Of a stretch of DNA of 64,000 nucleotides, positions 38,785 through 59,978 are shown one piece after another. The stretch comes from a virus. Its lineage: Duplodnaviria; Caudoviricetes. Positions within the stretch are counted from its first letter, which is position 1. Each line of letters begins with the position of its first letter. The notes beneath the pieces were generated by a model that saw only the letters and a list, made by a program, of their open reading frames with translations, was not told where the DNA came from and made no database searches. The translations under genes and the position numbers were made by a program. Location of the stretch: the IMG/VR virus record IMGVR_UViG_3300027734_003164, positions 32,001 to 96,000 of that record, one strand, 5' to 3'.

Positions 38785-38785
38785 A

Positions 38786-40544: not shown

Positions 40545-40603
40545 TTAAAAATTTTTATACATTTATTTTTTTTAATTTAAATACGTGGTTTGTAATGTAA
40601 AGA

Positions 40604-41098: not shown

Positions 41099-41138
41099 GG
41101 GGAAAATATAGTATAATTTTATTAGAAATGAATTTTAA

Positions 41139-42722: not shown

Positions 42723-42751
42723 AATAATAAATATTACCTTTAATGGAAAAC

Positions 42752-43324
42752 TTAAATATAGTCTATAAGAATTTTTAGAATTTCAGATTCACTTAATCCA
42801 GTTCTATATGATACGTTCTCAATAGCCTCTTTTAATTTTGATTTTTTCTTAGTTTTTTTAGGAGTTGACTTTGTCAATTTAGTATTAAAACCACCCGTTT
42901 TACCAAATTCTAAAGCGTTTATATCTCCCTGATTACAATAAGGGAAAGTTTTACATTTTTCTTTTGGTTTTACAAATAACCCACCAGGTAATTGTGTTTT
43001 TTTAGACGGTCCCCAACTATTTAAGTTTTTAGCCAAAAAAGATGCCCCTTCATATGAACCTGAAGACGCCGAACCAGTTGCTTCAGTTGCTTCTATTTTT
43101 TCAACATCTTCCTCTTCGTTGAAATTCAAAGCGGGGGCAAAACTTCCTGCCGATGCCGCTCCCATACCTTCTTTGGTTTCTTTTTTTGTTTTTTTGTATT
43201 CTTTTTTTGCTTCAGTATCTTTAGAAAACAAACTAAATATTGGTCTACTAATCGTTGAAGATTTTTCTTCTATCAACTCTCTTAGTGCGTTTTCTATTAA
43301 CTTTTGGTGGTCTATATTTTTCAC
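42752..43324 (-). CDS. Hypothetical protein, probably head-associated
   Basis: Repeated TKE/ATE-A-x-G-xx-S-x-G-S motifs. Confidence 0.6.
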   Translation of the reverse strand: MKNIDHQKLIENALRELIEEKSSTISRPIFSLFSKDTEAKKEYKKTKKETKEGMGAASAGSFAPALNFNEEEDVEKIEATEATGSASSGSYEGASFLAKNLNSWGPSKKTQLPGGLFVKPKEKCKTFPYCNQGDINALEFGKTGGFNTKLTKSTPKKTKKKSKLKEAIENVSYRTGLSESEILKILIDYI

Positions 43325-43328
43325 TTAC

Positions 43329-43580
43329 TTATATTTTTAAATTTTTAAATGTGCTGGTCCACATATGTTTTTGTCTATACATCTCATAGTAAAATTCGGT
43401 AAATGCCTTTGTAATATAATCAGTAATGTCCCCTTTTATTTTTCCGTTTCTAATTTCTTTTCTTATCAAATCAATCATTTGATTTTCAAATTGTTTAAGG
43501 GTACTAGAATTGAAAAAGCTTTTGATTTCACTTTTAACAATTTTTTCTATTTCTTTTTTATCTGATTGTGAAAACGGCAT
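43329..43580 (-). CDS. Hypothetical protein
   Basis: Coupled run. Confidence 0.6.
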   Translation of the reverse strand: MPFSQSDKKEIEKIVKSEIKSFFNSSTLKQFENQMIDLIRKEIRNGKIKGDITDYITKAFTEFYYEMYRQKHMWTSTFKNLKI

Positions 43581-43582
43581 GA

Positions 43583-43996
43583 TTAAAAAATTAATAGTCC
43601 TGTTAATGTTAGTATTATAGAACCTCCAACTACCTGTATGAATGTACTTTTTACTTTATGTTTTTTAAATTCTTTTCTTAACCTTTCATTTTCGTCTGAC
43701 ATTATTTTAAACTTTTGTTCGGTATTTGAAACCAATATTTTGTTTGTGGAGTCTAACTTCTGCCAACTTGAAATTGATTTTTCCATATAAAAAACCTTGT
43801 CGTTAAGTTGTATGATTTGTTTTTCGTTAAGTTTATTTATTTCTTTTAACCTATCATAGTCATTTAAATCCAATAACATTTTTTGTGCAACCCCATAAGG
43901 TATGCATATTTCTGAAGTATCTTGAGGTTTTGGTTTTTGAGCTAAACTATTAAACCCAATAAAAAGAATTAATAGTAAAATTGTTATTCTATTCAT
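43583..43996 (-). CDS. Exported coiled-coil protein with C-terminal TM (spanin-like partner?)
   Basis: Signal peptide, coiled coil and C-terminal hydrophobic segment; no lipobox. Confidence 0.45.
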   Translation of the reverse strand: MNRITILLLILFIGFNSLAQKPKPQDTSEICIPYGVAQKMLLDLNDYDRLKEINKLNEKQIIQLNDKVFYMEKSISSWQKLDSTNKILVSNTEQKFKIMSDENERLRKEFKKHKVKSTFIQVVGGSIILTLTGLLIF

Positions 43997-43997
43997 C

Positions 43998-44348
43998 TTA
44001 AAAATTATATCTTTTTCTAAGCAAACTATCTACTTGTTTTTTGTCTGCGTTTTTTATCTCTTCTTTTTTTTGAGTGTAGTAGTTATTAACTTCCTTTTTT
44101 TCTATTTTTATATTTGATATTTTTTTATCAATATCTTTTACTTTTTGATTATAAGAATTGATTGAATCATTTAAACTTTTTTGAAGGTTTTTTAGTTCTC
44201 CGATGTGTTTATCCAATTGCTCCAATTTATATTTATCCAACTCAGACATTTCTGGTTTTTTTGTTAAAATCAGTATTAAAAGATAAATGATGGCAAATAC
44301 ACCAACACCTATTAAAATTTTTTGCCAATATTTTTTTAAAAATTCCAT
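43998..44348 (-). CDS. N-terminal TM plus coiled coil (i-spanin-like)
   Basis: TM at residues 10-28 followed by heptad repeats. Confidence 0.45.
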   Translation of the reverse strand: MEFLKKYWQKILIGVGVFAIIYLLILILTKKPEMSELDKYKLEQLDKHIGELKNLQKSLNDSINSYNQKVKDIDKKISNIKIEKKEVNNYYTQKKEEIKNADKKQVDSLLRKRYNF

Positions 44349-44349
44349 A

Positions 44350-44895
44350 TTATTCTTCTTCTGTAAATTTAGTTTTTTTCCTAACTGAAATTATTTTCGC
44401 CCATTTGCTTTTAAATTTTTCAAAAAAAGATTTTAATTTGTTTGTTAAATCAACAAGCTCTTGGTCCAATTTAATCATATCCCCATTTATATATACACCG
44501 TTGTTTTCGCCAATAGAATAGAAAAACTCAACGTCAGCATCAACTATCTTACCACTCCATTGAACTGAATTACTATAAACATTTAATACTCCAAAGTCTG
44601 AAAGGTCAGATACTTCATTAACAAATTCTTCCATGGTTTCTTGATAAGATTGTTTTTCGTCGTTTGTTAATTCCAACTCTTTTTTATCTTTACCATGAAG
44701 AGTTAAAAGACCTCCCGATATACGATAAGTTTTACTTTTGTCTTTTTTTACTTTATCAACATCAACTTCAGTTTCTTGTTCCTCATCTTGTTCGATGTTG
44801 TCTTCAATACTTTTTGCCATATTAATTGGTCCTACTTGTTCTTGCAAAAGTCTAGACCTTTTCAACAACATTTTTATTTCATCATACTGGTTCAT
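44350..44895 (-). CDS. Hypothetical leader-bearing protein
   Basis: MNQYDEIKMLLKRSRLLQE. Confidence 0.65.
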   Translation of the reverse strand: MNQYDEIKMLLKRSRLLQEQVGPINMAKSIEDNIEQDEEQETEVDVDKVKKDKSKTYRISGGLLTLHGKDKKELELTNDEKQSYQETMEEFVNEVSDLSDFGVLNVYSNSVQWSGKIVDADVEFFYSIGENNGVYINGDMIKLDQELVDLTNKLKSFFEKFKSKWAKIISVRKKTKFTEEE

Positions 44896-45490
44896 ATTCT
44901 TCTAATAATTTTTCAAAATTGTTAAAATTGAAAGATGGGTTTATATCTCTACAGTTTGAATTGTAATTGCTTTTTGTTGCAACTCCGTTAAAGTTTTCAA
45001 CTCCCGATAATTTGACATTTGTTTTTGTTGTCTTTTTATCGATGTTAAACTTTTCACACAACTCATGTGTTAAAAAAACCAAACTTTCAATTTGTTTTTG
45101 AGTATATGGGTCCCAAAAAAATTGTTCTCTCCATTTTTTTTCAAAAACTTTCTCTTTATAAATATCACCTATCCAATTTAAATAGTTTGTTTCTATTGGT
45201 ATTTTTTTTAACCAAGTTAAATTCTCTAAAACAATAGTTATAGAGTTTTTGTCAACCGACTCATCACCTATGTAATTTGAATACATATTAGGTTCTGAAA
45301 TCATAAATATTTCACCACTTTTATTAATTAAATAATTAGGTAGATGTGGGTTATTTTGATTGTACCTGTGTAATAATGATTGTATATAAAATCTATAAGG
45401 CCTTTTAGTGTCGGCCAAAATTATTTGACTTTTTTTGTCGTTACGAGACAGAACTTCAGATTCTATTAATTTTGAAATTACCTGTATCAT
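44882..45490 (-). CDS. Amidase_2-like protein lacking zinc ligands
   Basis: IILADT, NYLINKSGEI, SITIVLEN, TQKQIESL..LCEKFNI, DINPSFNF follow the amidase layout, but the His ligands are replaced. Confidence 0.6.
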   Translation of the reverse strand: MIQVISKLIESEVLSRNDKKSQIILADTKRPYRFYIQSLLHRYNQNNPHLPNYLINKSGEIFMISEPNMYSNYIGDESVDKNSITIVLENLTWLKKIPIETNYLNWIGDIYKEKVFEKKWREQFFWDPYTQKQIESLVFLTHELCEKFNIDKKTTKTNVKLSGVENFNGVATKSNYNSNCRDINPSFNFNNFEKLLEEYEPV

Positions 45491-46682
45491 TCTTAGTGTA
45501 TGAAAGTCTTCTATTTGTTATTGTTTGAGTTTCTTCTGTATTATTACTAATAATTTCTTCAGGTGTTTCCTCTACTTGAGGTTCAATTATTTCTTCCATG
45601 CCATCTTCTGTGACATCTTCTGTGACATCTTCTGTGACATCTTCAATCACTGGTTCTGTTTCTTCAGGAATCCATTCCCAACTATCATTAATACTTAATA
45701 AACTATCAGGAACATTGACTTCCTCTTCAACTTGGTGGGTAAGTTCGTGGGGAAGTTCATGGGGAAGTTCGTGGGTAACTTGGGGGGTGACTTGAGGGGT
45801 GACTTGAGGGGTGACTTGAGGGGTAACTTGGGGGGTAACTTGGGGGGTGACTTCTCGTTTTGGGGAATCATCTTCCTCATCTTTTCTATTATTTTTGAAT
45901 GCTTGGTTTGTTGCAATAACTAATGTAATAGCTAATGGGTCAAACACAAAAATTAAAATTAATATAAAGATGTTAGCGGTTTTTTTAACACTCCATCCGG
46001 TAAGTTCACTGATATATTTTATGGTTCCAAGTTCATTACCTGAAATCTCTTTTGATTCTAATTCAAGTACTTTTATATCTAATGCGGTAATACTGTCATT
46101 AAGAGCATCCACTTTACCTGACATTTTGTCACGATTTTCAATCGCCAATTCTAATTGTAATTCAAATGATTTACGATTTGCGTTATTTGCTCTTGTTACA
46201 ACCTGACCTGTTTGTCTATCCACACTTTGAGTTGTGGTGTTAGTTGATAAGGCGTTTCTTAATTTTGAGATGTCTTTATCTAATATTTGTTTTTCTTTTT
46301 GGTACTCGTTTTTAATTTCCTCAAATCTTTGTTTTTTTACTTCAATGTTTTTTACTTCCTTCTGACCGATTTCAAGTTTTGCGATATTGGTTGAAAATCC
46401 TGTACTTAAAAGTCCATATATCCCCAATGATGTAATAAGAGATAAAGTTACAAGAGCGACAGTCATATATAATTTTAATACTCCGTAAGTTTCTTTCCAC
46501 TTGTCGTGAAGATATGTTGCGATGGCAATTTTTGATAATTCTAAAAACCCACCCATAATTATTACAGGTAAAGCAACTCCAACAAACACAACGGATAAAC
46601 CAACAACACTATAATACGCCGCAGTTCCTGATAAACCGAGAGCACAAAACAACAAAAACCAAGGTAGTAATTTTTCTTTCAT
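45456..46682 (-). CDS. Multi-TM coiled-coil protein with C-terminal tetrapeptide repeats
   Basis: Three N-terminal TMs, coiled coil, further TM, then (VTPQ)6, (HELP)2-3 and (EDVT)3; TATTTAT at 46700. Confidence 0.75.
   Translation of the reverse strand: MKEKLLPWFLLFCALGLSGTAAYYSVVGLSVVFVGVALPVIIMGGFLELSKIAIATYLHDKWKETYGVLKLYMTVALVTLSLITSLGIYGLLSTGFSTNIAKLEIGQKEVKNIEVKKQRFEEIKNEYQKEKQILDKDISKLRNALSTNTTTQSVDRQTGQVVTRANNANRKSFELQLELAIENRDKMSGKVDALNDSITALDIKVLELESKEISGNELGTIKYISELTGWSVKKTANIFILILIFVFDPLAITLVIATNQAFKNNRKDEEDDSPKREVTPQVTPQVTPQVTPQVTPQVTPQVTHELPHELPHELTHQVEEEVNVPDSLLSINDSWEWIPEETEPVIEDVTEDVTEDVTEDGMEEIIEPQVEETPEEIISNNTEETQTITNRRLSYTKNDTGNFKINRI
45601..45855 (-). repeat. In-frame 12-bp tandem repeats
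   Basis: tcttctgtgaca x3; acttg(g/a)ggggt(g/a) x6; gggaagttc(g/a)tg x2-3. Confidence 0.85.
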
Positions 46683-46721
46683 ATTAATAACTATAACAGA
46701 TAAATATTAAAGATAAATAAA

Positions 46722-46846
46722 ACCCTCACCGGCGCCGATGAGGGAGTGTAGTTTCATTCTACCGTATAGATAGAATTGAGGATTCTCACCCAGGGCTCTT
46801 CGTGTCCCATTCCGCCGAGTTGTAAGGGTAATCTCGGTTCAACCCT
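46722..46846 (-). ncRNA. GC-rich structured RNA candidate ending in a terminator-like hairpin
   Basis: CCGAG/CTCGG, ATTCTA/TAGAAT and CCCTCATCGG-CG-CCGGTGAGGG-TTT in a non-coding gap. Confidence 0.4.
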
Positions 46847-47384
46847 ATAAGTAAATAACTAATATGTTATTGCCTTTTATTCCTTCTATTGTAACTCTTT
46901 TTGATTTTTTTTCTTCAACATTAGTCTTTAAAAACTGACCATCATTTGAAAATGCAGATGTTATTATATTGAAAAAATTACCATCTTTATTTAGTAAAAT
47001 TTCAACATAATTAAAATGCTTGTCGTCTTCATTATCCTTTCTTTTTTTAACAAAAATAATTTGATTATTTTCAGGTTTTTCAGTTTCGAATGAATTATAA
47101 ATTTTTTCTAAACTATTTTCAAACAATTTTTTTATCATGGAGTCAGGAACTGCTATTCTTGGTGGTTGTACGTATTTTGAGCGTCTAGTTGCAAGATGGT
47201 CATTATACATATCAACTAAACTATCATAACTTTCTTTACCAAACCTTTCTTTTCTTTGGTGGTAAGTTGATTTTAATTGTATCAATTTATTATCTATGAT
47301 TTTAGAAAATAAAACCGTACCTCTATCTTTTTCTTTTTTAGATTCAACTATGATGATATTTTTTAATACGGATAATAAATTCAT
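46845..47384 (-). CDS. Leader-bearing protein, possibly BECR-fold RNase-like
   Basis: Start moved to MNLLSVLKNIIIVES; STYHQRKERF near the N-terminus and NIITSAF near the C-terminus; TATTTATA at 47389. Confidence 0.6.
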   Translation of the reverse strand: MNLLSVLKNIIIVESKKEKDRGTVLFSKIIDNKLIQLKSTYHQRKERFGKESYDSLVDMYNDHLATRRSKYVQPPRIAVPDSMIKKLFENSLEKIYNSFETEKPENNQIIFVKKRKDNEDDKHFNYVEILLNKDGNFFNIITSAFSNDGQFLKTNVEEKKSKRVTIEGIKGNNILVIYL

Positions 47385-47400
47385 ATCATATAAATACAAA

Positions 47401-47535
47401 AAGGGTGAGAAAAATCCCACCCTTTTTAATTTTCCCGTACCGATTAGAGGATTTTAAACCCGACACACTAACCGCGGTGTCACGACGACTTACGACCCCA
47501 GGAGTAAGCTTCCCGACAAACACTGATACATGTCT
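47401..47535 (-). ncRNA. Small promoter-driven structured RNA candidate
   Basis: TATCTTTGTA promoter at 47548; GCTTAC/GTAAGT and GACAC/GTGTC stems; terminator AAGGGTGGGA..TCTCACCCTTTT; no ORF. Confidence 0.5.
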
Positions 47536-47587
47536 CATTGTTTGTTATACAAAGATAAGTGTTTTTTTTAAACTGCCAAAACTTTTA

Positions 47588-48403
47588 TCATAAATATTCA
47601 AATAAATCTGAACATTCGTTTCGTAGTTTACGAAGAGCCTTTTCTTTGATTTGACGAACTCTTTCTTTTGTAAGACCAAAATCTGTACCAATATCTTCCA
47701 AAGTACGAGGTGTGCCGGTAATACCATAGTAATCCTCAATAATTACTTTTTCACGCTCATCCAATACTGACATAATTTCCATCATTTTAAGTTTGAGAGT
47801 GTCCTTTGTTGAAAACATTTCATCAGGTGAAACGATATTTTCATTTTTTATTACATCAATTAATGTGTCTCCGTCTTCATTGATGTGCATATCCAAATCA
47901 ACAATTTTTGGAAGTTGTGCAAACTTTGCGGATAATTCCCCGTTAGTTTTTTCCAAAACCTTTTTTTCTTTTTGCATATCTTGTACAACATTAACCGGAA
48001 GTCTGATTGTTCTTGAATTATCATTTAGTGATTGAAGGATTGATTGTTTAATCCACCAAACAGCATAAGAAATAAAACGGTTGTTTTTGGTCCAATCAAA
48101 ATTCTTAATGGCCTTTAATAGTCCATAGTTTCCTTCAGCAATTAAGTCTGATAGGTCAATACCTTGATTTTGATATTGTTTTGCCACGGTAATAACAAAA
48201 CGTAAGTTACCCTCTAAAAGTTCTTTATAGATTAACTCTTTTTCTCTTTCAGTACAGTTTTCATCTGTAATCATTTTTGAAAGGATTTTTTCCCTTTCAG
48301 GTGTCATTACTTTTAACTTTCGAATGTCTTTTAAATAAAGTTGAATTTCGTCTTGGTTAATCGGGTTTGAAGATTTAATTTCCTCGGTTTTCTCTCTTTC
48401 CAT
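47588..48403 (-). CDS. RNA polymerase sigma-70 family factor
   Basis: QLYLKDI (region 1.2), NLRFVITVAKQY, DLIAEGN, RFISYAVWWIKQSI (region 2), TLEDIG..LTKERVRQI (region 4). Confidence 0.93.
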   Translation of the reverse strand: MEREKTEEIKSSNPINQDEIQLYLKDIRKLKVMTPEREKILSKMITDENCTEREKELIYKELLEGNLRFVITVAKQYQNQGIDLSDLIAEGNYGLLKAIKNFDWTKNNRFISYAVWWIKQSILQSLNDNSRTIRLPVNVVQDMQKEKKVLEKTNGELSAKFAQLPKIVDLDMHINEDGDTLIDVIKNENIVSPDEMFSTKDTLKLKMMEIMSVLDEREKVIIEDYYGITGTPRTLEDIGTDFGLTKERVRQIKEKALRKLRNECSDLFEYL

Positions 48404-48965
48404 AATTGTCTAATATTTGTTTTTCTTCCTCTGTTAATGACTCTATACCTTTTTCTGAAATCTTATCCAAAATTTGGTCTACAGTCGGTTTCTCTTTTTT
48501 TTCTTCTTTTAAAAATGGATTTTTAATCATGTCTTCCGTTATTGGAAATATGAACTCCATTATATTGTTCATTCTTTTCTTTTTTTCATCTGATAATTCA
48601 TCTTTTTGTACTCCTTTTGTTTTTGTTTCTTTTTTTACTCCATCTATATTTAAAAAATCTCTCTTCAATTTTCGTTCCATTTTGATGTCCACGTTTTCTG
48701 TTGCCTCCATCAAAAAATATTGTTCGACAGTTCCGTCTAAACACATATCAACGTATTCTTTCAGTTCCATAAAAGGTTCTTTGGTTCTAAAGTGTAAAAC
48801 TATGCCAAACTCACCATAATTAAACTTCAGGTATTCACTAGAAACCACCGTTATTAGCTGATACGAAATGTCCTCAATAAACTTTTCCATTTCTGTGAAA
48901 TCACCGAAAATAAAAAGCATATATCTTTTGTCTTGTGATTTCATTTCTGTTTTCTTCTTTCTCAT
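48375..48965 (-). CDS. Hypothetical protein with C-terminal VDQILDKISEKGIESLT motif
   Basis: C-terminal helical motif resembling DUF6576-type tails. Confidence 0.65.
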   Translation of the reverse strand: MRKKKTEMKSQDKRYMLFIFGDFTEMEKFIEDISYQLITVVSSEYLKFNYGEFGIVLHFRTKEPFMELKEYVDMCLDGTVEQYFLMEATENVDIKMERKLKRDFLNIDGVKKETKTKGVQKDELSDEKKKRMNNIMEFIFPITEDMIKNPFLKEEKKEKPTVDQILDKISEKGIESLTEEEKQILDNYGKRENRGN

Positions 48966-48974
48966 AAATATCTT

Positions 48975-49523
48975 TTAAACTCGTTTTGAATATGATACAA
49001 TTTGGTAAAAATCCTTTTTTCCTTCACAATATTCTAACACCAAAGTTAATAATGTTTTGAACATGTAAGCGTCTTTTGTTTGTTTTTCGCAGATGGTAAA
49101 TAACTCAATAAAACTCACAAGGGTGTCCATCTTATAATACCCATGATTGTCTAAAACATCGAACTCATATAAATGTTTTTTGTAAAAATTAAGTTCGTAA
49201 CTATTTCTTTCTTCTGTGTTGTTGAATGGTTCCGTTGTTTCATACAAAGATAATACTTTTTTTACAAACTTACCAACAATCACTTTATTATATTCACATT
49301 TTACTAAAAGGTCAGTAATCCAGTGCGTATGACTTGGTGTTCTTAAACGTTTGTTAGTTTCTTTGTATTTTACAATAAAGTCAAGTTCAGGATTTTCACC
49401 TCTTGAACCTTGGTATGTCGCAACCATAGTTCCGTCTACCATTGTATACGTAGAAATTGGTGAAAAGGTTACACCTTTTTTAGTATAAGTTAGGGTCATA
49501 ATTTTATTTTTTTTATAAATCAA
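48975..49523 (-). CDS. Unknown protein coupled to the EcoRI-like gene
   Basis: Overlaps the endonuclease stop; RLRTPSHTHWITDLLVK; no methyltransferase motifs. Confidence 0.7.
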   Translation of the reverse strand: MIYKKNKIMTLTYTKKGVTFSPISTYTMVDGTMVATYQGSRGENPELDFIVKYKETNKRLRTPSHTHWITDLLVKCEYNKVIVGKFVKKVLSLYETTEPFNNTEERNSYELNFYKKHLYEFDVLDNHGYYKMDTLVSFIELFTICEKQTKDAYMFKTLLTLVLEYCEGKKDFYQIVSYSKRV

Positions 49524-50331
49524 TACTTAATATTTCAAGGGAAGTTTTTGAAACTTCTAACATAATATCCAACATTTCAATATTGTTCCACTTATCACCA
49601 TTTCCTTTTGTGTAAATAGATGCGCTTTGTAAAACACGTAATACCGTACCATTTTTAGTTATGGATTTGTTTTTACACAAATTAGTATTTATTGGCATTC
49701 CATAATTTAAAGCAGTCAACCTATCCAATCTGTTTAATGTACCAGAGTTTGATGATAGAGTTACGTCTCTACCATCAGGTCTTGTTATGGAAATTGTTTC
49801 TGTCAAAAAATTTGAACCTTCTAAAAACAAAATATATGGAAAATGTGATTCAGAAATCATTAAGTTACGAGTTTCAATTATATTTTTTGGAGCTCTTTCA
49901 ATTGCGTTTCCAGCCACCATTAAGTCTTGATTGGATAATTTACCAACTAAAACCCCCTTTTTTATATTTTCAATATCCTTTCCTTGAAACTTTGCTTCCG
50001 TAATTAAAACTATCCTCCAATCACCATTTTTATCTTTTACTTCAATTATTCCACCGTCTGGTTTAATACATGACTTAGACACAAAAAGGGTTTGACCTAA
50101 TTCGGAGTCCATTTTTTTTAAAGAGTCATTTATTTCTTTTTTAGATACGCTTTTTCTATATCTAAAAGTAAGATGGGGGTATTCCTCTTTTATTTTTTTT
50201 AATACGTGAGTTGTAGTATTATCAACACTCGATTCGTGGATTTTTGCATCATCTCCAAAAATACCATCAACACCTTGAGTCTTTTTATGTTGGTCCGTTA
50301 ATCTTTTTGATTGTTTATTTTTGATGGTCAT
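49513..50331 (-). CDS. EcoRI-like type II restriction endonuclease
   Basis: Colinear with EcoRI as I recall it: RLTDQHK, IKPDGG, EAKFQGKDI, GNAIER, ESHFPY.LFLEGSNFLTE, TRPDGR, LNRLDRLTA.NYGMPIN; catalytic PD..EAK intact; own promoter at 50361. Confidence 0.93.
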   Translation of the reverse strand: MTIKNKQSKRLTDQHKKTQGVDGIFGDDAKIHESSVDNTTTHVLKKIKEEYPHLTFRYRKSVSKKEINDSLKKMDSELGQTLFVSKSCIKPDGGIIEVKDKNGDWRIVLITEAKFQGKDIENIKKGVLVGKLSNQDLMVAGNAIERAPKNIIETRNLMISESHFPYILFLEGSNFLTETISITRPDGRDVTLSSNSGTLNRLDRLTALNYGMPINTNLCKNKSITKNGTVLRVLQSASIYTKGNGDKWNNIEMLDIMLEVSKTSLEILSIDL

Positions 50332-50385
50332 ATTTTTATGATTTAAATATATCCTTAGAATACAAATATATAAAAAAGTTAATTA

Positions 50386-52758
50386 CTACAAAACTTTTGA
50401 CACATTATTTTCTTTTTTAATTTTTACAATACTGTCCGACCATTGCGAAACTAAGGGAGAATGTGTTATGACAAAAATCTTGTCAAAATATTCTTTAATT
50501 TTGATGAAAAACTCGGCAACCATTTCTAAATTATCATTACTTATTTTACCAAACACCTCATCGAAGACAATTATGTTGGGCTTAGGGGTACTAGCCACCT
50601 TACTTAGTACTGAACGTAGAGCCAATGAAGCGATTGTTTTTTCATATCCTGAACCTGAAACCATCAATTTTTCAATACCAGTACTATTATCAATCATAAC
50701 AAATTCCACCTCATTTTTATCGTTGATTCTAATCTCCAATTTGAAGTATGAACTATCCTCCATCAATCTTTGAAGTTCTGAATTGATTAGTGGCATCATG
50801 GTCTTCATAATCATTTTTGATATTCCATTTTTACCAAACAACTCCAAGTAAATTTTAAAGTTCTTTTCTTTTTCCTCTTCTTTTTTGATTTGTTCAATTA
50901 GTTTAAGGTTATTTTCAATTTTTTCTTGGTTGTTAGTATTACCCACCTCAAGTGTTGTGATTTCAGATTTCTTTGATGTTTTTTGTGTTTCAAGTTCATC
51001 AAGTCTCATATCCGCTTTAATCAACATCGTTTCAATTTGTTGATTGTCTTTAATCTTATCCTGTATCTCAAAATATCTTTTAAGTTTTGAATTAAAACTT
51101 TCAATTTTCAAATCACAACTTTCAACTGATAATTCGTATTTTTCCTTGATAAGTTTGTTTTTTTCATATTCATCAAACTCTTTTTTAAGTTGTACAAATG
51201 ATTGTTCTTTGTTGGATAAATCATTCATAAGTGTCGTTTTTGTGTTTTTTTGCACAATAAGCCCATCTAATTCTGCAATTTTTGAATTGGTGATTGCGGC
51301 ATTCATTAACTCAATCCCACAATGTTCACATTTAATACCACCTTCAACTGAAGACTTCAATTTGTTAATTGAAGAAATTTCCGTGTCAATTTGAACAATC
51401 TCTTTATAAACACTATTATATTGTTCTTTAACTTCATCATGTTTATCTTCATGATAAAACTCACTTGGTTCGACAACTTTAAGTTCATTTATTTTTGATA
51501 TGAATGTGCTTTTTTCGTAGTTGATTGTGTTGATTTCTTCTTGTGTTTTTTCAGGATTCAATACAGAGATTTCTTGGTCAATATCAGAATGTTTTTTCTT
51601 TAACATATCATCCCGATAATCTTTTCCTTTTTTAATTTTCTCCTCAATATCTTTCAACTCAATTTTAACTTCTTCAATTTTTTTCAAATTAGTAGAAATT
51701 GTATTTTTCAACTCTTCGTTGTTGTCTTTAAGTTGTTGTGAAGAATATACATTTGACATCTTTGATTTTGAAAAATCTCCATATACTTCTTTTGCAACTT
51801 CTTCTTTTCTTTTTAAGAACTCCAATCCCATAAATCTTGACAATACCTGACCACGAGCAGTTGGTTTTGCTTCCAACAATTCTTCAAGGTTTGATGCTGT
51901 TGTAAGAATGGTCATTAAAAAGTCTTCTTTTGTGCCAATAGAAGTTTTAATAAACGCTTCAGTTTCACGTCTTTGTTCACCGGTAAAGTTTTGTAAACTA
52001 CCATCAGATAATTTTTTAAAGAAGTCCAATTCTGTTTTTACGTTCCATTCACCTTTCTTGGACAACTTTCTTTCAATGTTTCTAACAATAATGTAATCTT
52101 CACCATCGATTGATACTTCACCTTTTACATAAACTTTATCTTTATTTGTAAATCGGTTGAATATTTCTTCAGCCTTTGTTGTTTTGGTTGTTTCATTAAA
52201 AAACAAGAACATCAAAAGGTCTACCGATAAAACCGTTTTACCTCCAAAGTTTGGTGGGTCCGATTCGACAACAACAATACCATTAAGTTTTTCAAAATCT
52301 AATCTTTGATTTTCACCATAAGATAAAAAGTTTGAAAACTCAATGTTTTTGATATACCACTTTTTAAATTGTGTGGTTTCTTCGTGTTTTTCTAAAATCT
52401 TATTTTCAACTATTTTATTAATTGAAAGGATTTCATCGGTATGACCTGTAAGACCTTTACCTTCCAAATATTGTCTCATCAGCCCCAACTGGTAGTTCGC
52501 ATCAGTTATATTTACTGACACATCTATCGTTTGAACTTCATCTGTGTTTGTAATTTTAGCCTTTGTTAAAACATTGACGTTGGTAGTGTTATACTTTTTG
52601 GAAAAGTAATGTTTAACACTTTTAATTTTGTCTTGTGTAAAATTTTCAGGCAAATCTTCCCAAACAACTTGTATGGTCGGGTTTATAAACTTTGAAAAAT
52701 CAAGGTCTTTAATCATAATATTGTAATTAAATTTTTTTGGTGGATTAAATAAATCCAT
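50386..52758 (-). CDS. SbcC/Rad50/gp46-like ABC ATPase with an N-terminal extension
   Basis: Walker A NFGGKT, zinc hook CEHC, signature SGSGYE, Walker B VFDE, H-loop ITH. Confidence 0.92.
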   Translation of the reverse strand: MDLFNPPKKFNYNIMIKDLDFSKFINPTIQVVWEDLPENFTQDKIKSVKHYFSKKYNTTNVNVLTKAKITNTDEVQTIDVSVNITDANYQLGLMRQYLEGKGLTGHTDEILSINKIVENKILEKHEETTQFKKWYIKNIEFSNFLSYGENQRLDFEKLNGIVVVESDPPNFGGKTVLSVDLLMFLFFNETTKTTKAEEIFNRFTNKDKVYVKGEVSIDGEDYIIVRNIERKLSKKGEWNVKTELDFFKKLSDGSLQNFTGEQRRETEAFIKTSIGTKEDFLMTILTTASNLEELLEAKPTARGQVLSRFMGLEFLKRKEEVAKEVYGDFSKSKMSNVYSSQQLKDNNEELKNTISTNLKKIEEVKIELKDIEEKIKKGKDYRDDMLKKKHSDIDQEISVLNPEKTQEEINTINYEKSTFISKINELKVVEPSEFYHEDKHDEVKEQYNSVYKEIVQIDTEISSINKLKSSVEGGIKCEHCGIELMNAAITNSKIAELDGLIVQKNTKTTLMNDLSNKEQSFVQLKKEFDEYEKNKLIKEKYELSVESCDLKIESFNSKLKRYFEIQDKIKDNQQIETMLIKADMRLDELETQKTSKKSEITTLEVGNTNNQEKIENNLKLIEQIKKEEEKEKNFKIYLELFGKNGISKMIMKTMMPLINSELQRLMEDSSYFKLEIRINDKNEVEFVMIDNSTGIEKLMVSGSGYEKTIASLALRSVLSKVASTPKPNIIVFDEVFGKISNDNLEMVAEFFIKIKEYFDKIFVITHSPLVSQWSDSIVKIKKENNVSKVL

Positions 52759-52763
52759 AGTGA

Positions 52764-53051
52764 TTAATCGTTTTCACCAACATTGTGAAAACCTGCAATT
52801 TGCACTTTTGTTCCGTCTTCTAATATTGTGTCATAATTGGGTGTTTCCGTAGTATCATTATCTGTACCTTCAGAAACAACATCTTCAATATTTTCAGTGT
52901 CTCCTGACATTTGTGCAAACTTTTCTTTCAATTCTTCCATTTGTTTTTGAAACGCCTCATTCCATTTCTTTCTAAGAGTATATTCTTCTTGTTTAACTTT
53001 TTTGTTTCTCTTTTGAACTTTTGCTCTATGTGCTTTTGCCGCTTTACCCAT
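52764..53051 (-). CDS. Hypothetical protein with basic N-terminus and acidic C-terminus
   Basis: MGKAAKAHRAKVQKRN. Confidence 0.6.
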   Translation of the reverse strand: MGKAAKAHRAKVQKRNKKVKQEEYTLRKKWNEAFQKQMEELKEKFAQMSGDTENIEDVVSEGTDNDTTETPNYDTILEDGTKVQIAGFHNVGEND

Positions 53052-53062
53052 TTTTATTTAAT

Positions 53063-53413
53063 TTAAAATTTATTACTTGGTCTGTTTTGTTCGTACCATT
53101 CGATTACCGAATTGATTGCCCAAACTGCACCTGATGACAAAACACCATCAAAGAACCATGAGCCCCAAATCGGTGTATTAAACATATCATTTGTTGGTGA
53201 ATAAATCAACAAGGATAATACGAACCCAGCCCATGTTGAAAAACACATTGGGCAAGATAATATCCCTGAAATAAACTCACCTAAAAAATGAAGTGGCATG
53301 AATTTATTTTCACCCCAATTTTTAAAAAAGTTTCTTAAACCCTGAAATATGGACCCATAAACCATAATGTTCATTAATCCATAACTTAAAATAAACCATA
53401 CTAAAATTTCCAT
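53063..53413 (-). CDS. DUF1360-like membrane protein
   Basis: ILSCPMCFSTW with flanking TMs. Confidence 0.6.
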   Translation of the reverse strand: MEILVWFILSYGLMNIMVYGSIFQGLRNFFKNWGENKFMPLHFLGEFISGILSCPMCFSTWAGFVLSLLIYSPTNDMFNTPIWGSWFFDGVLSSGAVWAINSVIEWYEQNRPSNKF

Positions 53414-53423
53414 ATATTTTTTT

Positions 53424-54209
53424 TTAACCGTTTAAATTGGAGCTTCCGTGAAATTTTGCGTTGATGAACGAATTATTTTTTGGTTGCTCTAATATTTTTT
53501 TTTCTAATTCTTTGTTTTTATTTTTTAAATCCCTTATTTCTGAATTTAAATTTTGGATGGTTTGTTGTAACATCTTCAACTTACCATCATCTACAGAAAT
53601 GTCTAAATTACGTCTAAGTTCGTCTAACTCTTCATCCTTTTTAGACATTTCATTTTGGAAAATATTTTCCATTTCTTTTGTTTTAATTGAAAATTCTTGT
53701 CTAATATTGTCAATTTCTGTGGTCTTAATCGAAATTTCTCCGTTCAACTGTTGTATTTTTAACAACAGTTCATCCAACTGTTCGGAATTTCTTGACAGTT
53801 CGATTTCCAACTGTTGTATTTTTAACAACAGTTCATTTTCAGTTGTTTTGTCACTAATATATTCTATTTTTGTGACAATTTTTTCAACCTCTTTAATAAC
53901 CTCAACAGGTATTTCTTTAATAACCTCAACTATTTTTTCAACCTCTTTGATTACTTCAACAGGAACTTCCACCAGTTTTTCAACAATTATCTCTTTTATT
54001 AATTGTTTTTCTTCAACTCCAACCGTTTTTAAGTCTTTTTCACCTTCATTAAGTGTTTTTCCCAAAAACCCATATTTTTTAATATCAAATCCTTGTTTAA
54101 AACATAGATAAATAAAATTATCAACGTCTTTTATTTCTTTAGATTCGCAAAATGCAGACACTGCCTGCATCATTTCTTTACTAAATATTTTGGAGTCTTT
54201 CTGTTCCAT
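53424..54209 (-). CDS. Coiled-coil protein with VEVIKEVEKI repeats
   Basis: Repeats and a long heptad region. Confidence 0.7.
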   Translation of the reverse strand: MEQKDSKIFSKEMMQAVSAFCESKEIKDVDNFIYLCFKQGFDIKKYGFLGKTLNEGEKDLKTVGVEEKQLIKEIIVEKLVEVPVEVIKEVEKIVEVIKEIPVEVIKEVEKIVTKIEYISDKTTENELLLKIQQLEIELSRNSEQLDELLLKIQQLNGEISIKTTEIDNIRQEFSIKTKEMENIFQNEMSKKDEELDELRRNLDISVDDGKLKMLQQTIQNLNSEIRDLKNKNKELEKKILEQPKNNSFINAKFHGSSNLNG

Positions 54210-54840
54210 TTATTTTATTTCTTTTTTCTAAATTTTCATACCACCATAATGGTTGTAGATTGGTAAAATGACAAAGTTTATAAATTTCTTCTTCTGTTTT
54301 AGCTGATATTAATGGTATAATATGGTCTATGTGCCAACCATTTAATCCATAATTTTCCCAACACATACCATCTTTAAATTGTTTTTCTATATGTTCTTTT
54401 AATTTTTTAGGTTCACACCCAACAATTTTAAAAGTTTCGTTATCTTGTCTTATATTTTTACTTTTTAAAAAATTTTTTACCCTACTCCGAACATTACACC
54501 TTATTTTAAATTCAATGTCATTTTTTTTTCTATTTTTTGTGTAATTATTTATTTTTTCTTTGTTATTATCTCTGTATTTTTTTGCACGTTTTTTTTGTTC
54601 CTCTTTAGTTCTATCTCTATATTTTTTTTTAGTTTCTTTATGTTTTTCAACATTTCTAAAATAAGTTTCTCTATTCCAACTATTAGTTTTTTCTTTATTT
54701 ATCTTTCGGTAATTATTTACCCTATTTCTAGTGCAATTTTTGCACTCATTTCTTAAACCGTCTTTTGAATCGGACCTTGAGTGGAAGTCGTTTATAACTT
54801 TTTCAGTATGACAAATATTACAAATTTTTGTATTTTTCAT
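54181..54840 (-). CDS. HNH endonuclease with N-terminal zinc finger
   Basis: CNIC..ECKNC; WHIDHIIPL..CHFTNLQPLW..EN.EK. Confidence 0.85.
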   Translation of the reverse strand: MKNTKICNICHTEKVINDFHSRSDSKDGLRNECKNCTRNRVNNYRKINKEKTNSWNRETYFRNVEKHKETKKKYRDRTKEEQKKRAKKYRDNNKEKINNYTKNRKKNDIEFKIRCNVRSRVKNFLKSKNIRQDNETFKIVGCEPKKLKEHIEKQFKDGMCWENYGLNGWHIDHIIPLISAKTEEEIYKLCHFTNLQPLWWYENLEKRNKINGTERLQNI

Positions 54841-54979
54841 CTTTATAATCTTTAAGTAATTTATTAACTAAAGAAGATAAATTGATGTGTAATGTTCGAT
54901 AAAATTTTAATAATTCTGGTTCAAGAGCAACAGAAACTTTGGTCTTTTTATCTTCATCTTTTATTTTTAATCTTCCCAT
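54818..54979 (-). CDS. 53-aa ribbon-helix-helix-like protein overlapping the HNH start
   Basis: MGRLKIKDEDKKTKVSVALEPELLKFYRTLHINLSSLVNKLLKDYKDEKYKNL; not in the track. Confidence 0.65.
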   Translation of the reverse strand: MGRLKIKDEDKKTKVSVALEPELLKFYRTLHINLSSLVNKLLKDYKDEKYKNL

Positions 54980-55024
54980 ATATTATAAATATCTTAATCT
55001 ATCAAAAAGTGTGAATAATATTAA

Positions 55025-55804
55025 TTAAATATTAATTAATTTTTCTGTTCCATTTTCTACGTCTTCAAAGGACTTGATTGAAAATTTTAACAGTGGTCTT
55101 GGATTGAACAAATCAACATATTTATATTCTTTAGTTTGAACGTCATAAATACCGTATCCGTGTTTTCCTATACTTTCCCCTACATTCTGCTGAATTGTAG
55201 ACCCAATCATATAACCCTTTCCCGTATTGAATTTAAACTCTTGTCTTTTATGAATATCTCCACATAAGACGGTTTCAAGTCCATCAAACTTTTCAACATC
55301 GTATGCCTCTTCACCAAAGTCAAAACCAAGGTCTGTTTTCATTCCTTGAATTGGTCCGTGAAACAATCCAATTCTTTTACCCTTCGCTTCTGTAATGTCA
55401 GGTGGTATATTTCCCTGTAGTTGCGAATAAACACACCAACTAATGTTTTCATCTTCATATACACCTCTATCTTTGAGGTATAAAATATTTTCATTATGTA
55501 AGGTATTTACAATAGGTGTAATGGAATCTAGCCTGTCTTGATTGTTTAAATTTGTATCATGGTTTCCAAGTATAATAATTGTTTTTGAAATATTAGAACA
55601 TTCAGTCAATAACCATCTAACCATCTCAATAAGTTCAGGTGTCATTTGGTTTTTAGAATGAACTAAGTCTCCAGTGAATACAATCCTATCTGGGTTTAAT
55701 TCTTTCCATTGTTCAATGGCAGTTTCCAAAATTGATTTATACAAATCGTGGTCTTTGAAAAGACGGATGTGTAAGTCAGAAAAATGTATTAACTTTTTAA
55801 TCAT
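55025..55804 (-). CDS. SbcD/Mre11/gp47-like metallophosphoesterase nuclease
   Basis: HFSDLH, FTGDL, LGNHD, GLFHG, CGDIH. Confidence 0.92.
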   Translation of the reverse strand: MIKKLIHFSDLHIRLFKDHDLYKSILETAIEQWKELNPDRIVFTGDLVHSKNQMTPELIEMVRWLLTECSNISKTIIILGNHDTNLNNQDRLDSITPIVNTLHNENILYLKDRGVYEDENISWCVYSQLQGNIPPDITEAKGKRIGLFHGPIQGMKTDLGFDFGEEAYDVEKFDGLETVLCGDIHKRQEFKFNTGKGYMIGSTIQQNVGESIGKHGYGIYDVQTKEYKYVDLFNPRPLLKFSIKSFEDVENGTEKLINI

Positions 55805-55983
55805 TTTTTAAATCTATCAAATGGTTCTTTTTTAAAAAAGTATCCTGAGATATCTAAATAACGAAGTAACTCTATGTCTCCTTCAACCGTAGTTGTACCT
55901 TTTACTGATTTTAATAATGTAATTTTGTATCCAAAACGGTTAGCCAACCATTTAATGAATAATGCGGGGTATCTTTTCATAAT

Positions 55984-56178
55984 TTAATTGTTAGGTTTAA
56001 CCGTTATTGTATATTTTCTAGTATAACTTGAATCTTCGTTTTTTACTAATACACCTAACACAGGATTAAATGCGTCGGGGTCAAACATAATCGGTGTAAC
56101 AACAACATCTAAGTTGGAGTTTTCTAATGCAATTTTTACTTGTTGAGTAATTGCCATCTCATTAATTTCTGTTTTCAT
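55984..56178 (-). CDS. Hypothetical protein
   Basis: ORF in the run. Confidence 0.55.
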   Translation of the reverse strand: MKTEINEMAITQQVKIALENSNLDVVVTPIMFDPDAFNPVLGVLVKNEDSSYTRKYTITVKPNN

Positions 56179-56182
56179 AATT

Positions 56183-56425
56183 TTAATCGTTTAATTGTGT
56201 TTTATCTCCGCAATATACTTCGAATGGTGGTTGGTATGGGTCGTTTTGAATTGGAAAAGGATTCACCGGTATTGGTATTCTAAATGGTTCAGAAATATCA
56301 ATCTTGCTACTTTCTTTCACCAAATCCATCTTTTCCACAATTGGTGCAATATCAATGTTCTTATCTTCTAATTTTCCATGAAGGTAACCTTGTAACCAAA
56401 TATAAAATTCTTTATAACTTAACAT
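56183..56425 (-). CDS. Hypothetical protein
   Basis: ORF in the run. Confidence 0.55.
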   Translation of the reverse strand: MLSYKEFYIWLQGYLHGKLEDKNIDIAPIVEKMDLVKESSKIDISEPFRIPIPVNPFPIQNDPYQPPFEVYCGDKTQLND

Positions 56426-56564
56426 AATTCTCTACAATAAAGATTAATTAAAATAGCCCTTGCCAACTTAAATTCTTTTACTCTATTAAGTTTTAAACCA
56501 TAAAGATTTGCAATACTTTTCAAATGTGGAAAAGCTTCCGTAATTGTCATTTTACTTACTTCCA

Positions 56565-56783
56565 TTACTTGTCAAATAGTTGTAAATCTTTATTCACATT
56601 ACCACAATCATTACACATGTAAGTAGGGAATGGTACAATAGTGTCTTCGTGACTACCTGTCAAAAGTTTTGGTACTTTTTTTAACATAGTCACTTCTTTA
56701 AAATAAATTGATTCACATTTTTCACATTTAATAGTTTCTTGTTGTCTTAAATCAATTTTTGGTCTAATAATATCGTCGCTCAT
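56565..56783 (-). CDS. Small zinc-ribbon protein
   Basis: CEKC...CNDC. Confidence 0.7.
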   Translation of the reverse strand: MSDDIIRPKIDLRQQETIKCEKCESIYFKEVTMLKKVPKLLTGSHEDTIVPFPTYMCNDCGNVNKDLQLFDK

Positions 56784-56891
56784 TTTATTATATAATTTAT
56801 GTTTATTTTAATTGTTGAATTGTCCCAACTGGTATTTATGTACCAAACAGGTGTAATTGTAGTTTCCATAGTGAAATATAGTTTATTAGTT

Positions 56892-58666: not shown

Positions 58667-58704
58667 ATATAAAAGATAAGAATTTTATATGGATTGTCAA
58701 TTAA

Positions 58705-58735
58705 CAAAAAACCCACCTTTGTGGGGTGGGTTTTA
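58705..58735. terminator. Intrinsic terminator
   Basis: aaaaacccacc-tttgtg-gggtgggtttt. Confidence 0.7.
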
Positions 58736-58751
58736 ATATTTAAATATTTTT

Positions 58752-59222: not shown

Positions 59223-59274
59223 AATATTTTAATTTATTTATAAATATGTTGTTTTTTTATAAAATTAAATTTTT

Positions 59275-59928: not shown

Positions 59929-59978
59929 AATATTTTAATTTATTTATAAATATGTTATTTTTTTAAAAATTTAATTTT

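What the first reader, a model, noticed from the sequence alone, without database searches (positions are those of the whole stretch)
48975..50370. Orphan EcoRI-like restriction endonuclease under an early promoter, paired with an unknown gene instead of a methyltransferase
Seen: a full-length, closely EcoRI-like protein with catalytic PD..EAK and recognition segments (GNAIER, NRLDR) retained, though SH is AP after IER. It has its own TATATTTGTA promoter and is inserted between sbcC and the sigma operon. The coupled downstream ORF has no MTase motifs. Known: EcoRI normally travels with M.EcoRI and cuts GAATTC. Inferred: the phage has weaponised a restriction enzyme for host-DNA degradation or exclusion of co-infecting elements, and the partner may be an inhibitor, regulator or second nuclease.
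Basis: partly seen in the sequence, partly recalled or inferred. Interest (0 to 1): 0.75.

Follow-up and report, generated by a model that had tools for sequence, protein, structure and literature searches.

The report
Methylase-less EcoRI nuclease in lake phage
A large uncultured lake phage keeps an intact EcoRI-type DNA-cutting enzyme but has lost the protecting methylase that its relatives still carry next to it. Its own DNA contains no GAATTC site, so the enzyme can probably cut host or rival DNA without harming the phage.

Summary
Window 49513-50331 (-) encodes a full-length EcoRI-family endonuclease (Pfam E=4e-125; about 65% identical to crystallised EcoRI). All catalytic and base-contacting residues are kept, and a recurring TAnnTTTG-type promoter motif lies upstream.

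New evidence:
1. The 64-kb window has 0 GAATTC (about 24 expected). 120 kb of a relative that is 96% identical where it aligns also has 0 (42 expected).
2. Related phages carry R.EcoRI followed by M.EcoRI in the same sbcC/sigma slot. The solitary gene therefore arose by loss of the methylase, and this happened at least four times on the nuclease tree.
3. Methylase-less viral loci are almost free of GAATTC (1 seen, 50 expected). Loci with both genes are only depleted (19 seen, 56 expected).
4. The solitary nuclease is under purifying selection (dN/dS 0.07-0.13).

The downstream 174-aa "partner" is not a partner. The nuclease occurs without it, and it occurs without the nuclease. It has no known family or fold.

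Best reading: an offensive restriction enzyme, with the phage protected by erasure of the site. Activity, specificity and target are untested, and the whole genome was not available. Other first-stage notes of this scan had already flagged the absence of GAATTC by eye.

The parts
49513..50331 (-). Solitary EcoRI-family type IIP restriction endonuclease gene (272 aa)
   Evidence: Pfam PF02963 E=4.4e-125. Full-length alignment to EcoRI 1ckq/2oxv. D91/E111/K113 and M137, G140, N141, A142, E144, R145, R200, R203 are conserved. dN/dS is 0.07-0.13 against relatives.
50361..50370 (-). Promoter-like motif TATATTTGTA, containing a Bacteroidota-type -7 box TAnnTTTG, 29 nt upstream of the nuclease ATG
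   Evidence: 7 copies in the window against 0.75 expected, all in gene orientation. The same motif is upstream in L001 and a TAAGTTTG variant in L026. That it is a host-sigma (early) promoter is inferred from my knowledge of Bacteroidota promoters.
49521..50359 (.). Swappable cassette segment: the only stretch here that does not align with relative G001
   Evidence: blastn blocks end at window 49520 and resume at 50360. G001 has 1569 bp of other DNA there, encoding a 190-aa unknown protein and a 314-aa N6_N4 methylase. A contig from an independent lake DNA run also diverges at 49521.
48975..49499 (-). 174-aa neighbour gene ('partner') of unknown function. It is a positional neighbour, not a cognate partner.
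   Evidence: 707 homologues were found, none with a precomputed Pfam domain among the 120 listed. It occurs without the nuclease, and the nuclease occurs without it. AF2 model pLDDT 90.8; no convincing fold match.
50386..52758 (-). SbcC/Rad50-like ATPase gene, the conserved left flank of the variable slot
   Evidence: PF13558 (weak) and phrog_77 at E=1e-45. 97% identical in G001. Present upstream of the slot in the related loci that reach that far.
47588..48965 (-). DUF6576-tail protein and sigma-70 family factor genes, the conserved right flank of the slot
   Evidence: PF20216, PF04542 and PF04545. The same pair lies downstream of the slot in L001, L003-6, L008-10, L021-24 and, by ORF sizes, L026.
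1..64000 (.). GAATTC-free genome stretch (self-protection by absence of the site)
   Evidence: 0 GAATTC against 23.8 +/- 5.1 in dinucleotide shuffles and 17.6 by maximal-order Markov. It is the most depleted hexamer that does not contain GATC. 434 one-mismatch sites remain.
25325..26176 (-). Beta-class N6/N4 DNA methylase, considered and not supported as cognate methylase
   Evidence: PF01555 E=2e-32. It matches M.RsrI only weakly through shared motifs; best PDB hits are 2zie and CcrM. It is syntenic in relative L011, which has GAATTC at near-normal frequency and no nuclease in view.
35907..36746 (-). D12/Dam-class adenine methylase, not EcoRI-type
   Evidence: PF02086 E=8e-20. tblastn with M.EcoRI finds nothing in the window.

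Best explanation
The gene encodes an intact, most likely GAATTC-specific, EcoRI-family homodimeric restriction endonuclease. It descends from a complete EcoRI-type R-M operon (R then M) that this group of large freshwater phages carries in a recombination-prone slot between sbcC and a DUF6576-sigma operon. In the window's lineage, and independently in several others, the methylase gene was lost and the nuclease kept. This is tolerable because the phage DNA has no GAATTC at all, so protection is by site erasure rather than methylation. The gene probably uses a host-type (TAnnTTTG) promoter. The enzyme would then cut any unmethylated GAATTC-bearing DNA in the infected cell, meaning the host chromosome or co-infecting phages and plasmids, and leave the phage untouched. 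Losing the methylase removes the protection it would otherwise give those targets in trans. Shown: family membership, conserved residues, loss of M relative to kin, site absence, purifying selection, and independence from the downstream ORF. Inferred: catalytic activity, GAATTC specificity, early expression, and the target and benefit.
For: Family and residues. L026's nuclease shares the clade's H114F, A138V and S146A/H147P changes yet is still paired with an M.EcoRI-family methylase, which argues that specificity is unchanged.

Ancestral R+M in the same slot: L021/L022 have SbcC, R, M.EcoRI (PF13651) and the 176-aa ORF. L026 has SbcC, R (84% identical to the window's) and M. Identities of M and R rise and fall together between loci. 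The R tree needs at least 4 changes between R+M and R-only; L003 (R) is sister to L026 (R+M), and L023 (R) to L027 (R+M).

Site erasure: window 0 of about 24. G001 0 of 41.6 in 120 kb. Other R-only viral loci 1 of 25.9. R+M loci 19 of 56.3. L021 4 of 6.7 and L011 6 of 8.6. In L003-6 GATC is over-represented (74 against 42.6) while GAATTC is still 0 of 7.2, so the two avoidances are separate. Only the canonical site is missing: 434 one-off sites remain.

Selection on the nuclease: dN/dS 0.124 for window against L001, both methylase-less, and 0.073 for window against L003.

No M.EcoRI homologue in the window or in 120 kb of G001.

Precedent for a solitary enzyme in a site-free genome: PacI, as cited in PMC3488263.
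Against: No assay shows activity or specificity. The complete genome was not available, so a distant cognate methylase cannot be excluded. G001 is rated 41% complete at 120 kb. Close relatives without the nuclease (G001, L008-10) are also GAATTC-free. Some R+M loci are too (L028 0 of 10; L026 1 of 7.6). Avoidance is therefore not strictly tied to the solitary state, and could be imposed partly by host EcoRI-type systems or by kin that carry the nuclease. The phage also avoids several other palindromes (GATC 0 of 139, GTTAAC 2 of 23, CTTAAG 2 of 16), which shows strong general restriction pressure. If the host methylates GAATTC, its chromosome would not be a target. The pooled site counts are not phylogenetically independent.
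Confidence: 0.62

Rival explanations
1. Ordinary split R-M system: a cognate GAATTC methylase is encoded elsewhere. It could lie in the unseen part of the genome, or be the beta-class N6_N4 methylase at 25325-26176 acting like M.RsrI. The nuclease would then serve as normal superinfection defence.
For: The genome is much larger than the window (G001 is rated 41% complete at 120 kb). M.RsrI, the GAATTC methylase of the RsrI system, is beta-class and gives a weak hit to the window's PF01555 enzyme. About a fifth of solitary REase genes in prokaryotes have a predicted distant methylase (PMC3488263 abstract).
Against: There are no GAATTC sites to methylate in 64 kb, nor in 120 kb of the relative. 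There is no M.EcoRI homologue in either. The PF01555 enzyme matches 2zie and CcrM better than M.RsrI, and it is a syntenic core gene in L011, which has no nuclease in view. Kin with R+M keep M directly behind R.
Confidence: 0.1
2. GAATTC erasure is driven by host EcoRI-type restriction (or by nuclease-carrying kin), not by the phage's own enzyme. The solitary nuclease merely became harmless once the sites were gone, and it persists as a nearly neutral relic or only as a weapon against other phages, not against the host.
For: R-less close relatives G001 and L008-10 also lack GAATTC. Between the window and G001 about 4 new sites would be expected under neutrality and none is seen. The phage purges many palindromes. 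R+M loci are already depleted about three-fold.
Against: dN/dS of 0.07-0.13, including between two methylase-less genomes, is not what a relic would show. Every catalytic and recognition residue is intact in all clade members. Loss of M with retention of R recurs at least 4 times, the reverse of the usual decay. This rival overlaps the best explanation on self-protection and differs only on cause and target.
Confidence: 0.15
3. The downstream 174-aa protein is the functional partner (inhibitor, antitoxin-like regulator or second nuclease) that replaces the methylase.
For: It starts 13 nt after the nuclease stop and occupies the place where M sits in kin. It is also found behind other methylase-containing cassettes in the same slot.
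Against: The nuclease occurs without it in L003-6, L023/24 and L026. It occurs without the nuclease in G001, L008-10 and L011/12, and in L021 it sits together with R and M. It has 707 homologues, against about nine database clusters for the nuclease clade. No nuclease, HTH or other family or fold was detected.
Confidence: 0.06
4. The enzyme is inactive or has a changed or relaxed specificity, because it differs from EcoRI at H114, A138, S146, H147, E192 and Y193. Two of these positions (H114, A138) are ones where papers report specificity effects.
For: H114F, A138V, S146A, H147P and E192S/Y193S are fixed or nearly fixed in the clade. [quoted passage not shown]
Against: The same substitutions occur in L026, where the nuclease is still paired with an M.EcoRI-family methylase. 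The phage DNA carries 125 AAATTC/GAATTT and 434 one-off sites in all, so strong star activity would be suicidal. Only GAATTC itself is erased. Purifying selection is strong.
Confidence: 0.07

Closest known systems
R.EcoRI of the E. coli plasmid EcoRI R-M system (PDB 1ckq/1eri; Pfam PF02963)
   Same: About 65% identical over the full length, with the same catalytic D91/E111/K113 and the same base-contacting residues. Phage kin keep the same R-then-M gene order.
   Different: There is no adjacent M.EcoRI. It is carried by a large lytic-type phage. It has clade-specific H114F, A138V, S146A, H147P and E192/Y193 changes. Self-protection is apparently by absence of the site.
PacI of Pseudomonas alcaligenes, a solitary type II REase whose host genome lacks the site (cited in PMC3488263)
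   Same: A restriction enzyme without a methylase, tolerated because its own genome has no recognition site.
   Different: PacI is an HNH enzyme with an 8-bp AT-only site, which I recall is rare by composition in a GC-rich bacterium. Here a 6-bp site expected about 24 times per 64 kb has been actively purged from a 30% GC phage genome, and the methylase-bearing ancestor state is visible in relatives.
Virus-encoded nucleases that degrade host DNA while viral DNA is chemically protected: T4 endonucleases II and IV with hmC DNA, and chlorella-virus R-M systems (from my own knowledge, not checked here)
   Same: The same logic: a virus nuclease that discriminates host DNA from viral DNA.
   Different: Those viruses protect themselves by base modification or methylation. 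Here the discriminator would be the sequence content of the genome itself.
Solitary REase genes counted in phage genomes (12 in 831 phages; Oliveira et al. 2014, PMC4176335)
   Same: Phage-borne REase genes without a linked methylase are on record as a rare class.
   Different: In the passages read, that survey gives counts only. It offers no EcoRI-family case, no link to site erasure and no reconstruction of methylase loss. PHROGs v4 has no family matching this protein. The phage isolate collection holds only one partial EcoRI-like match, in a Helicobacter phage.

Membership tests
EcoRI family type IIP restriction endonuclease (PF02963) | Full-length match to the family profile above the curated cut-off | tested here: met
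   416 bits against a cut-off of 22, model positions 2-254 of 257
EcoRI family type IIP restriction endonuclease (PF02963) | PD..(D/E)XK catalytic residues D91, E111, K113 | tested here: met
   Present, and invariant in 50 aligned homologues. Their roles are as summarised in PMC11755562.
EcoRI family type IIP restriction endonuclease (PF02963) | GAATTC-reading residues (M137, G140, N141, A142, E144, R145, R200, R203) | tested here: met
   All are conserved. Neighbouring positions H114, A138, S146, H147, E192 and Y193 differ.
EcoRI family type IIP restriction endonuclease (PF02963) | Mg-dependent cleavage of G^AATTC | not testable with these tools
   Indirect support only: GAATTC alone is erased from methylase-less carriers.
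Complete EcoRI-type R-M system (R plus cognate M.EcoRI, PF13651) | Linked cognate methylase gene | tested here: not met
   tblastn with the phage M.EcoRI of L021 finds nothing in the window or in 120 kb of G001. The gap between the nuclease stop and the next gene is 13 nt.
Complete EcoRI-type R-M system (R plus cognate M.EcoRI, PF13651) | Unlinked cognate methylase elsewhere in the genome | tested here: inconclusive
   The whole genome is not held. The two methylases in the window belong to other classes.
Solitary REase protected by absence of its site (PacI-like situation) | Own genome lacks the recognition site | tested here: met
   0 of about 24 in the 64-kb window and 0 of 41.6 in 120 kb of a relative 96% identical where aligned. 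The rest of the genome was not seen.
R-M controller (C protein) or nuclease inhibitor, as the role of the downstream ORF | Consistent co-occurrence with the nuclease | tested here: not met
   The nuclease occurs without the ORF and the ORF without the nuclease in several lineages.
R-M controller (C protein) or nuclease inhibitor, as the role of the downstream ORF | HTH or other known regulator or inhibitor fold | tested here: inconclusive
   No Pfam or PHROG hit. The best structural Z is 4.6 and atlas TM is below 0.4.

The most novel reading that the evidence does not exclude
A widespread group of freshwater jumbo phages has repeatedly turned a defensive EcoRI R-M system into a purely offensive nuclease. 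The path was to purge every GAATTC from a genome of about 300 kb and then discard the methylase. Because any co-infecting relative must also be GAATTC-free to survive, the enzyme would act as a population-level 'kin password', which would explain why close relatives that lack the gene stay site-free.
Probability: 0.3. Interest if true: 0.8.

Novelty: new variant of a known kind. Interest (0 to 1): 0.62.

Why it matters
R-M systems normally decay by losing the nuclease and keeping the methylase, because the reverse kills the carrier. Here the reverse happened at least four times in one phage group, and the intermediate states can still be seen: R+M with sites present, R+M with sites nearly gone, and R alone with none.

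If the enzyme is active, it is a clean natural example of a virus that tells self from non-self by genome sequence content rather than by DNA modification. It would also be a type II restriction enzyme used for attack (host shut-off, nucleotide scavenging, exclusion of rivals) rather than defence. It would show that restriction-site avoidance in phages can be shaped by the phages' own or their relatives' nucleases, not only by host systems.

The idea is directly testable with a well-understood enzyme family.

Tried and rejected
- **Whole genome.** It is not held, so genome-wide site counts and a full methylase search could not be done.
- **Phage isolate collection, nucleotide search.** megablast of window 48000-52000 found nothing.
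- **Phage isolate collection, protein search.** The only EcoRI-like hit is one partial match in a Helicobacter phage. The SbcC search gave only about 25% identical hits, so no cultured relative is known.
- **Function of the 174-aa ORF.** Pfam, PHROGs, PDB sequence search, Foldseek against PDB, VIA-align wide, ESM-atlas features and atlas fold search gave no usable match.
- **Expression.** Contigs from three metatranscriptome runs cover parts of the sigma, DUF6576 and sbcC region, mostly from relatives, and give only a trace within the nuclease gene. Being contigs, they show neither expression nor silence.
- **Complex prediction of nuclease plus ORF.** Not run, because the comparative data argue against a specific pair.
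- **The clade's substitutions as a consequence of methylase loss.** Rejected, because L026 has them and still has M.
- **Remnant of M behind the nuclease.** None was found in the window or in L003.
- **Papers.** PMC3928799 was not held. Two literature searches for a phage case of a solitary REase with site erasure found none. That is not proof that none exists.

Full report
**1. What is there**

All genes in this part of the window lie on the minus strand. The order is:
- an SbcC/Rad50-like ATPase (50386-52758);
- a 54-nt spacer;
- a 272-aa ORF (49513-50331);
- a 13-nt spacer;
- a 174-aa ORF (48975-49499; the TTG at 49523 listed by the ORF finder is probably not the start, since homologues begin MTLTY... 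at the ATG);
- a protein with a DUF6576 tail (48375-48965);
- a sigma-70 family factor (47588-48403).

The 272-aa protein matches Pfam EcoRI (PF02963) at E=4e-125 over almost the whole model. It aligns end to end with crystallised EcoRI at E about 1e-106.

Counting along that alignment, D91, E111, K113, Q115, M137, G140, N141, A142, E144, R145, K148, N149, R200 and R203 are all retained. They are also invariant in 50 aligned homologues. PMC11755562 summarises the roles of P90, D91, E111, K113, Q115, M137 and N141.

It is part of a set of clade-specific changes: H114F, A138V, S146A, H147P and E192S/Y193S.

The motif TATATTTGTA lies 29 nt upstream of the ATG. It occurs seven times in the window against 0.75 expected, always in gene orientation. 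It contains TAnnTTTG, which I recall as the Bacteroidota sigma-A -7 box. This is my own knowledge and was not tested here.

**2. The key extra observation**

The 64-kb window contains no GAATTC. Dinucleotide-preserving shuffles give 23.8 +/- 5.1 and never fewer than 1. A maximal-order Markov estimate gives 17.6. Among hexamers expected at least 12 times, it is the most depleted one that does not contain GATC.

GATC is also totally absent (0 of 139), and several other palindromes are rare (GTTAAC 2 of 23, CTTAAG 2 of 16). The phage is therefore under strong restriction pressure in general.

Only the canonical EcoRI site is erased. 434 one-mismatch sites remain, including 125 AAATTC/GAATTT.

I found this. 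Later I saw that other first-stage notes of this scan had flagged the same absence by eye.

**3. Relatives show where the gene came from**

The slot between sbcC and the DUF6576-sigma pair is variable in this phage group.

| Locus | Content of the slot |
|---|---|
| Window, L001 (nuclease 96% identical) | R, then the 174-aa ORF |
| L003-L006 (87%), L023/L024 (71%) | R alone |
| L021/L022 (70%) | R, M.EcoRI (PF13651, 322 aa), then a homologue of the 174-aa ORF |
| L026 (IMG/VR, 84%) | R, M.EcoRI |
| G001 (about 96% nucleotide identity where aligned) | a 190-aa unknown protein, a 314-aa N6_N4 methylase, then the 174-aa ORF |

In G001 the alignment with the window breaks exactly at window 49520/49521 and resumes at 50360. 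L008-L010 and a 158-kb contig carry similar non-EcoRI cassettes. A contig from an independent lake DNA run also diverges at 49521.

The nuclease is therefore the remnant of a phage-borne EcoRI operon with the classical R-then-M order. On a tree of the viral nucleases, L003 (R only) is sister to L026 (R+M), and L023 (R only) is sister to L027 (R+M). At least four changes of state are needed. Identities of M and R rise and fall together between loci, which fits co-inheritance followed by loss of M.

**4. Site content against gene content**

| Loci | GAATTC seen | Expected |
|---|---|---|
| R-only viral loci, window excluded (62.6 kb) | 1 | 25.9 |
| R-only viral loci, window included | 1 | 49.8 |
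| R+M loci (131.8 kb) | 19 | 56.3 |
| L021 (R+M) | 4 | 6.7 |
| L011 (no nuclease in view) | 6 | 8.6 |
| L026 (R+M) | 1 | 7.6 |
| L028 (R+M) | 0 | 10 |

In L003-6 GATC is over-represented (74 against 42.6) while GAATTC is 0 of 7.2, so the two avoidances are independent.

L026 and L028 are R+M loci that are already nearly site-free. They look like intermediates, which suggests that the sites were purged before the methylase was dropped. This order is logically required if the nuclease is active.

Two caveats apply. The loci are phylogenetically related. And the R-less close relatives G001 (0 of 41.6 in 120 kb) and L008-10 are also site-free. Between the window and G001 about 4 new sites would be expected under neutrality, and none is seen (P about 0.015). 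Selection against GAATTC therefore continues even in a lineage that lacks the gene. Possible reasons are a very recent swap, host EcoRI-type restriction, or exposure to nuclease-carrying kin during co-infection.

**5. Is the solitary nuclease functional?**

dN/dS is 0.124 between the window and L001, which both lack the methylase. It is 0.073 against L003 and 0.13 against R+M members. This is clear purifying selection after the loss of M.

The clade's unusual substitutions include two positions where papers report specificity effects in EcoRI: A138T raises star activity, and H114 affects recognition and catalysis (PMC11755562). The same substitutions are present in L026, whose nuclease is still paired with an M.EcoRI-family methylase. 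The phage DNA is also full of star sites. I therefore expect unchanged GAATTC specificity with low star activity in vivo. None of this replaces an assay.

**6. The 'partner'**

The 174-aa protein has 707 database homologues, against about nine clusters for the nuclease clade. It is found in four settings:
- behind the EcoRI nuclease;
- behind EcoRI R+M;
- behind two different methylase cassettes;
- in L011/12, in another part of the genome next to glutaredoxin.

Several nuclease carriers lack it. It folds confidently (pLDDT 90.8) into an N-terminal beta-sheet followed by a helical bundle. It has no convincing match in the PDB or the ESM atlas and no Pfam or PHROG family. Its most conserved stretch is RLRTPSHTHW..DLLVKCE.

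I treat it as a neighbour of unknown function, not as a replacement for the methylase.

**7. Methylases**

The window has a beta-class N6_N4 enzyme (25325-26176) and a D12/Dam-class enzyme (35907-36746). Neither is M.EcoRI-like. The first resembles M.RsrI only through shared motifs, and it is a syntenic core gene in relatives that have GAATTC sites. With no sites present, GAATTC methylation of the phage DNA would be pointless in any case. A distant cognate methylase in the unseen part of the genome cannot be excluded.

**8. Mechanism proposed**

Shown: an intact EcoRI-family gene, the loss of its methylase relative to kin, a GAATTC-free genome, purifying selection, and a promoter-like motif of a recurring class.

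Inferred: the enzyme is made during infection and cuts unmethylated GAATTC in the host chromosome or in co-infecting DNA. Dropping M prevents those targets from being protected in trans.

Rivals are a split R-M system, host-driven avoidance with a nearly idle nuclease, the ORF as a true partner, and an inactive or altered enzyme. Each is scored in its own section.

**9. Comparison and novelty**

The protein is a member of the EcoRI family. The locus is not a member of 'EcoRI R-M systems', because the linked methylase was tested for and not found.

The principle of a solitary restriction enzyme tolerated because its genome lacks the site is known from PacI (cited in PMC3488263). Solitary REase genes have been counted in phages (12 in 831; PMC4176335). 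I found no paper describing a phage EcoRI-family enzyme, repeated loss of a methylase, or site erasure as a phage's self-protection. PHROGs has no matching family.

I rate it a new variant of a known kind, of moderate to good interest, and directly testable.

The phage is found in freshwater metagenomes from many studies. By its T9SS-tagged proteins and promoter type, it probably infects Flavobacterium-type Bacteroidota (earlier notes).

Noticed in passing
window 1-64000; 35907-36746 (-): GATC is completely absent (0 against 139 expected), and also from 120 kb of G001 (0 of 257). Yet the phage encodes a D12/Dam-class adenine methylase with no PDB sequence relative. Its target cannot be GATC on phage DNA.
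   Followed up: partly
window, whole: Several other 6-bp palindromes are strongly depleted: GTTAAC 2 of 23, CTTAAG 2 of 16, GATATC 1 of 11, TCTAGA 1 of 10. CTAG is at 29 of 92. This points to heavy multi-system restriction pressure.
   Followed up: partly
L020 715-2281 (= G001 79714-81280): In the closest relative the EcoRI gene is replaced by a 190-aa protein with no family, followed by a 314-aa beta-class N6_N4 methylase. This may be a different, uncharacterised type II R-M pair. L008 has yet another pair in the same slot: a 210-aa phrog_25220 protein and a 239-aa N6_N4 methylase.
   Followed up: partly
L003 8204-9007, L004 7392-8225: Relatives with a solitary nuclease and no 174-aa ORF carry a C5-cytosine methylase (PF00145) directly after the sigma gene. 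They over-represent GATC (74 against 42.6), unlike the window's lineage.
   Followed up: no
window 36752-37435 (-): A LAGLIDADG homing-endonuclease gene lies immediately upstream (in the direction of transcription) of the D12 methylase gene.
   Followed up: no
window 14206-14215, 16137-16146 (-): Two copies of the TATATTTGTA motif end only 2 nt before the listed ATG of the next ORF. This implies leaderless or near-leaderless mRNAs for this promoter class as well.
   Followed up: no
window 6785-7864 (-): A thymidylate-synthase homologue of 359 aa matches the 266-position Pfam model in two stretches. It seems to carry a large insertion. It may be worth checking whether it is a plain ThyA or a pyrimidine hydroxymethylase.
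   Followed up: no
window 48202-50385: One contig of an independent lake DNA run (X7) joins 48202 to 50385 and skips 2182 bp (DUF6576 gene, 174-aa ORF and nuclease). It rests on a single contig with a short side (34 nt), so it may be a more distant relative or an assembly artefact.
   Followed up: no
window 45456-46682 (-): A 408-aa membrane protein has a run of (VTPQ) repeats followed by HELP and VTED repeats, just upstream of an amidase gene.
   Followed up: no
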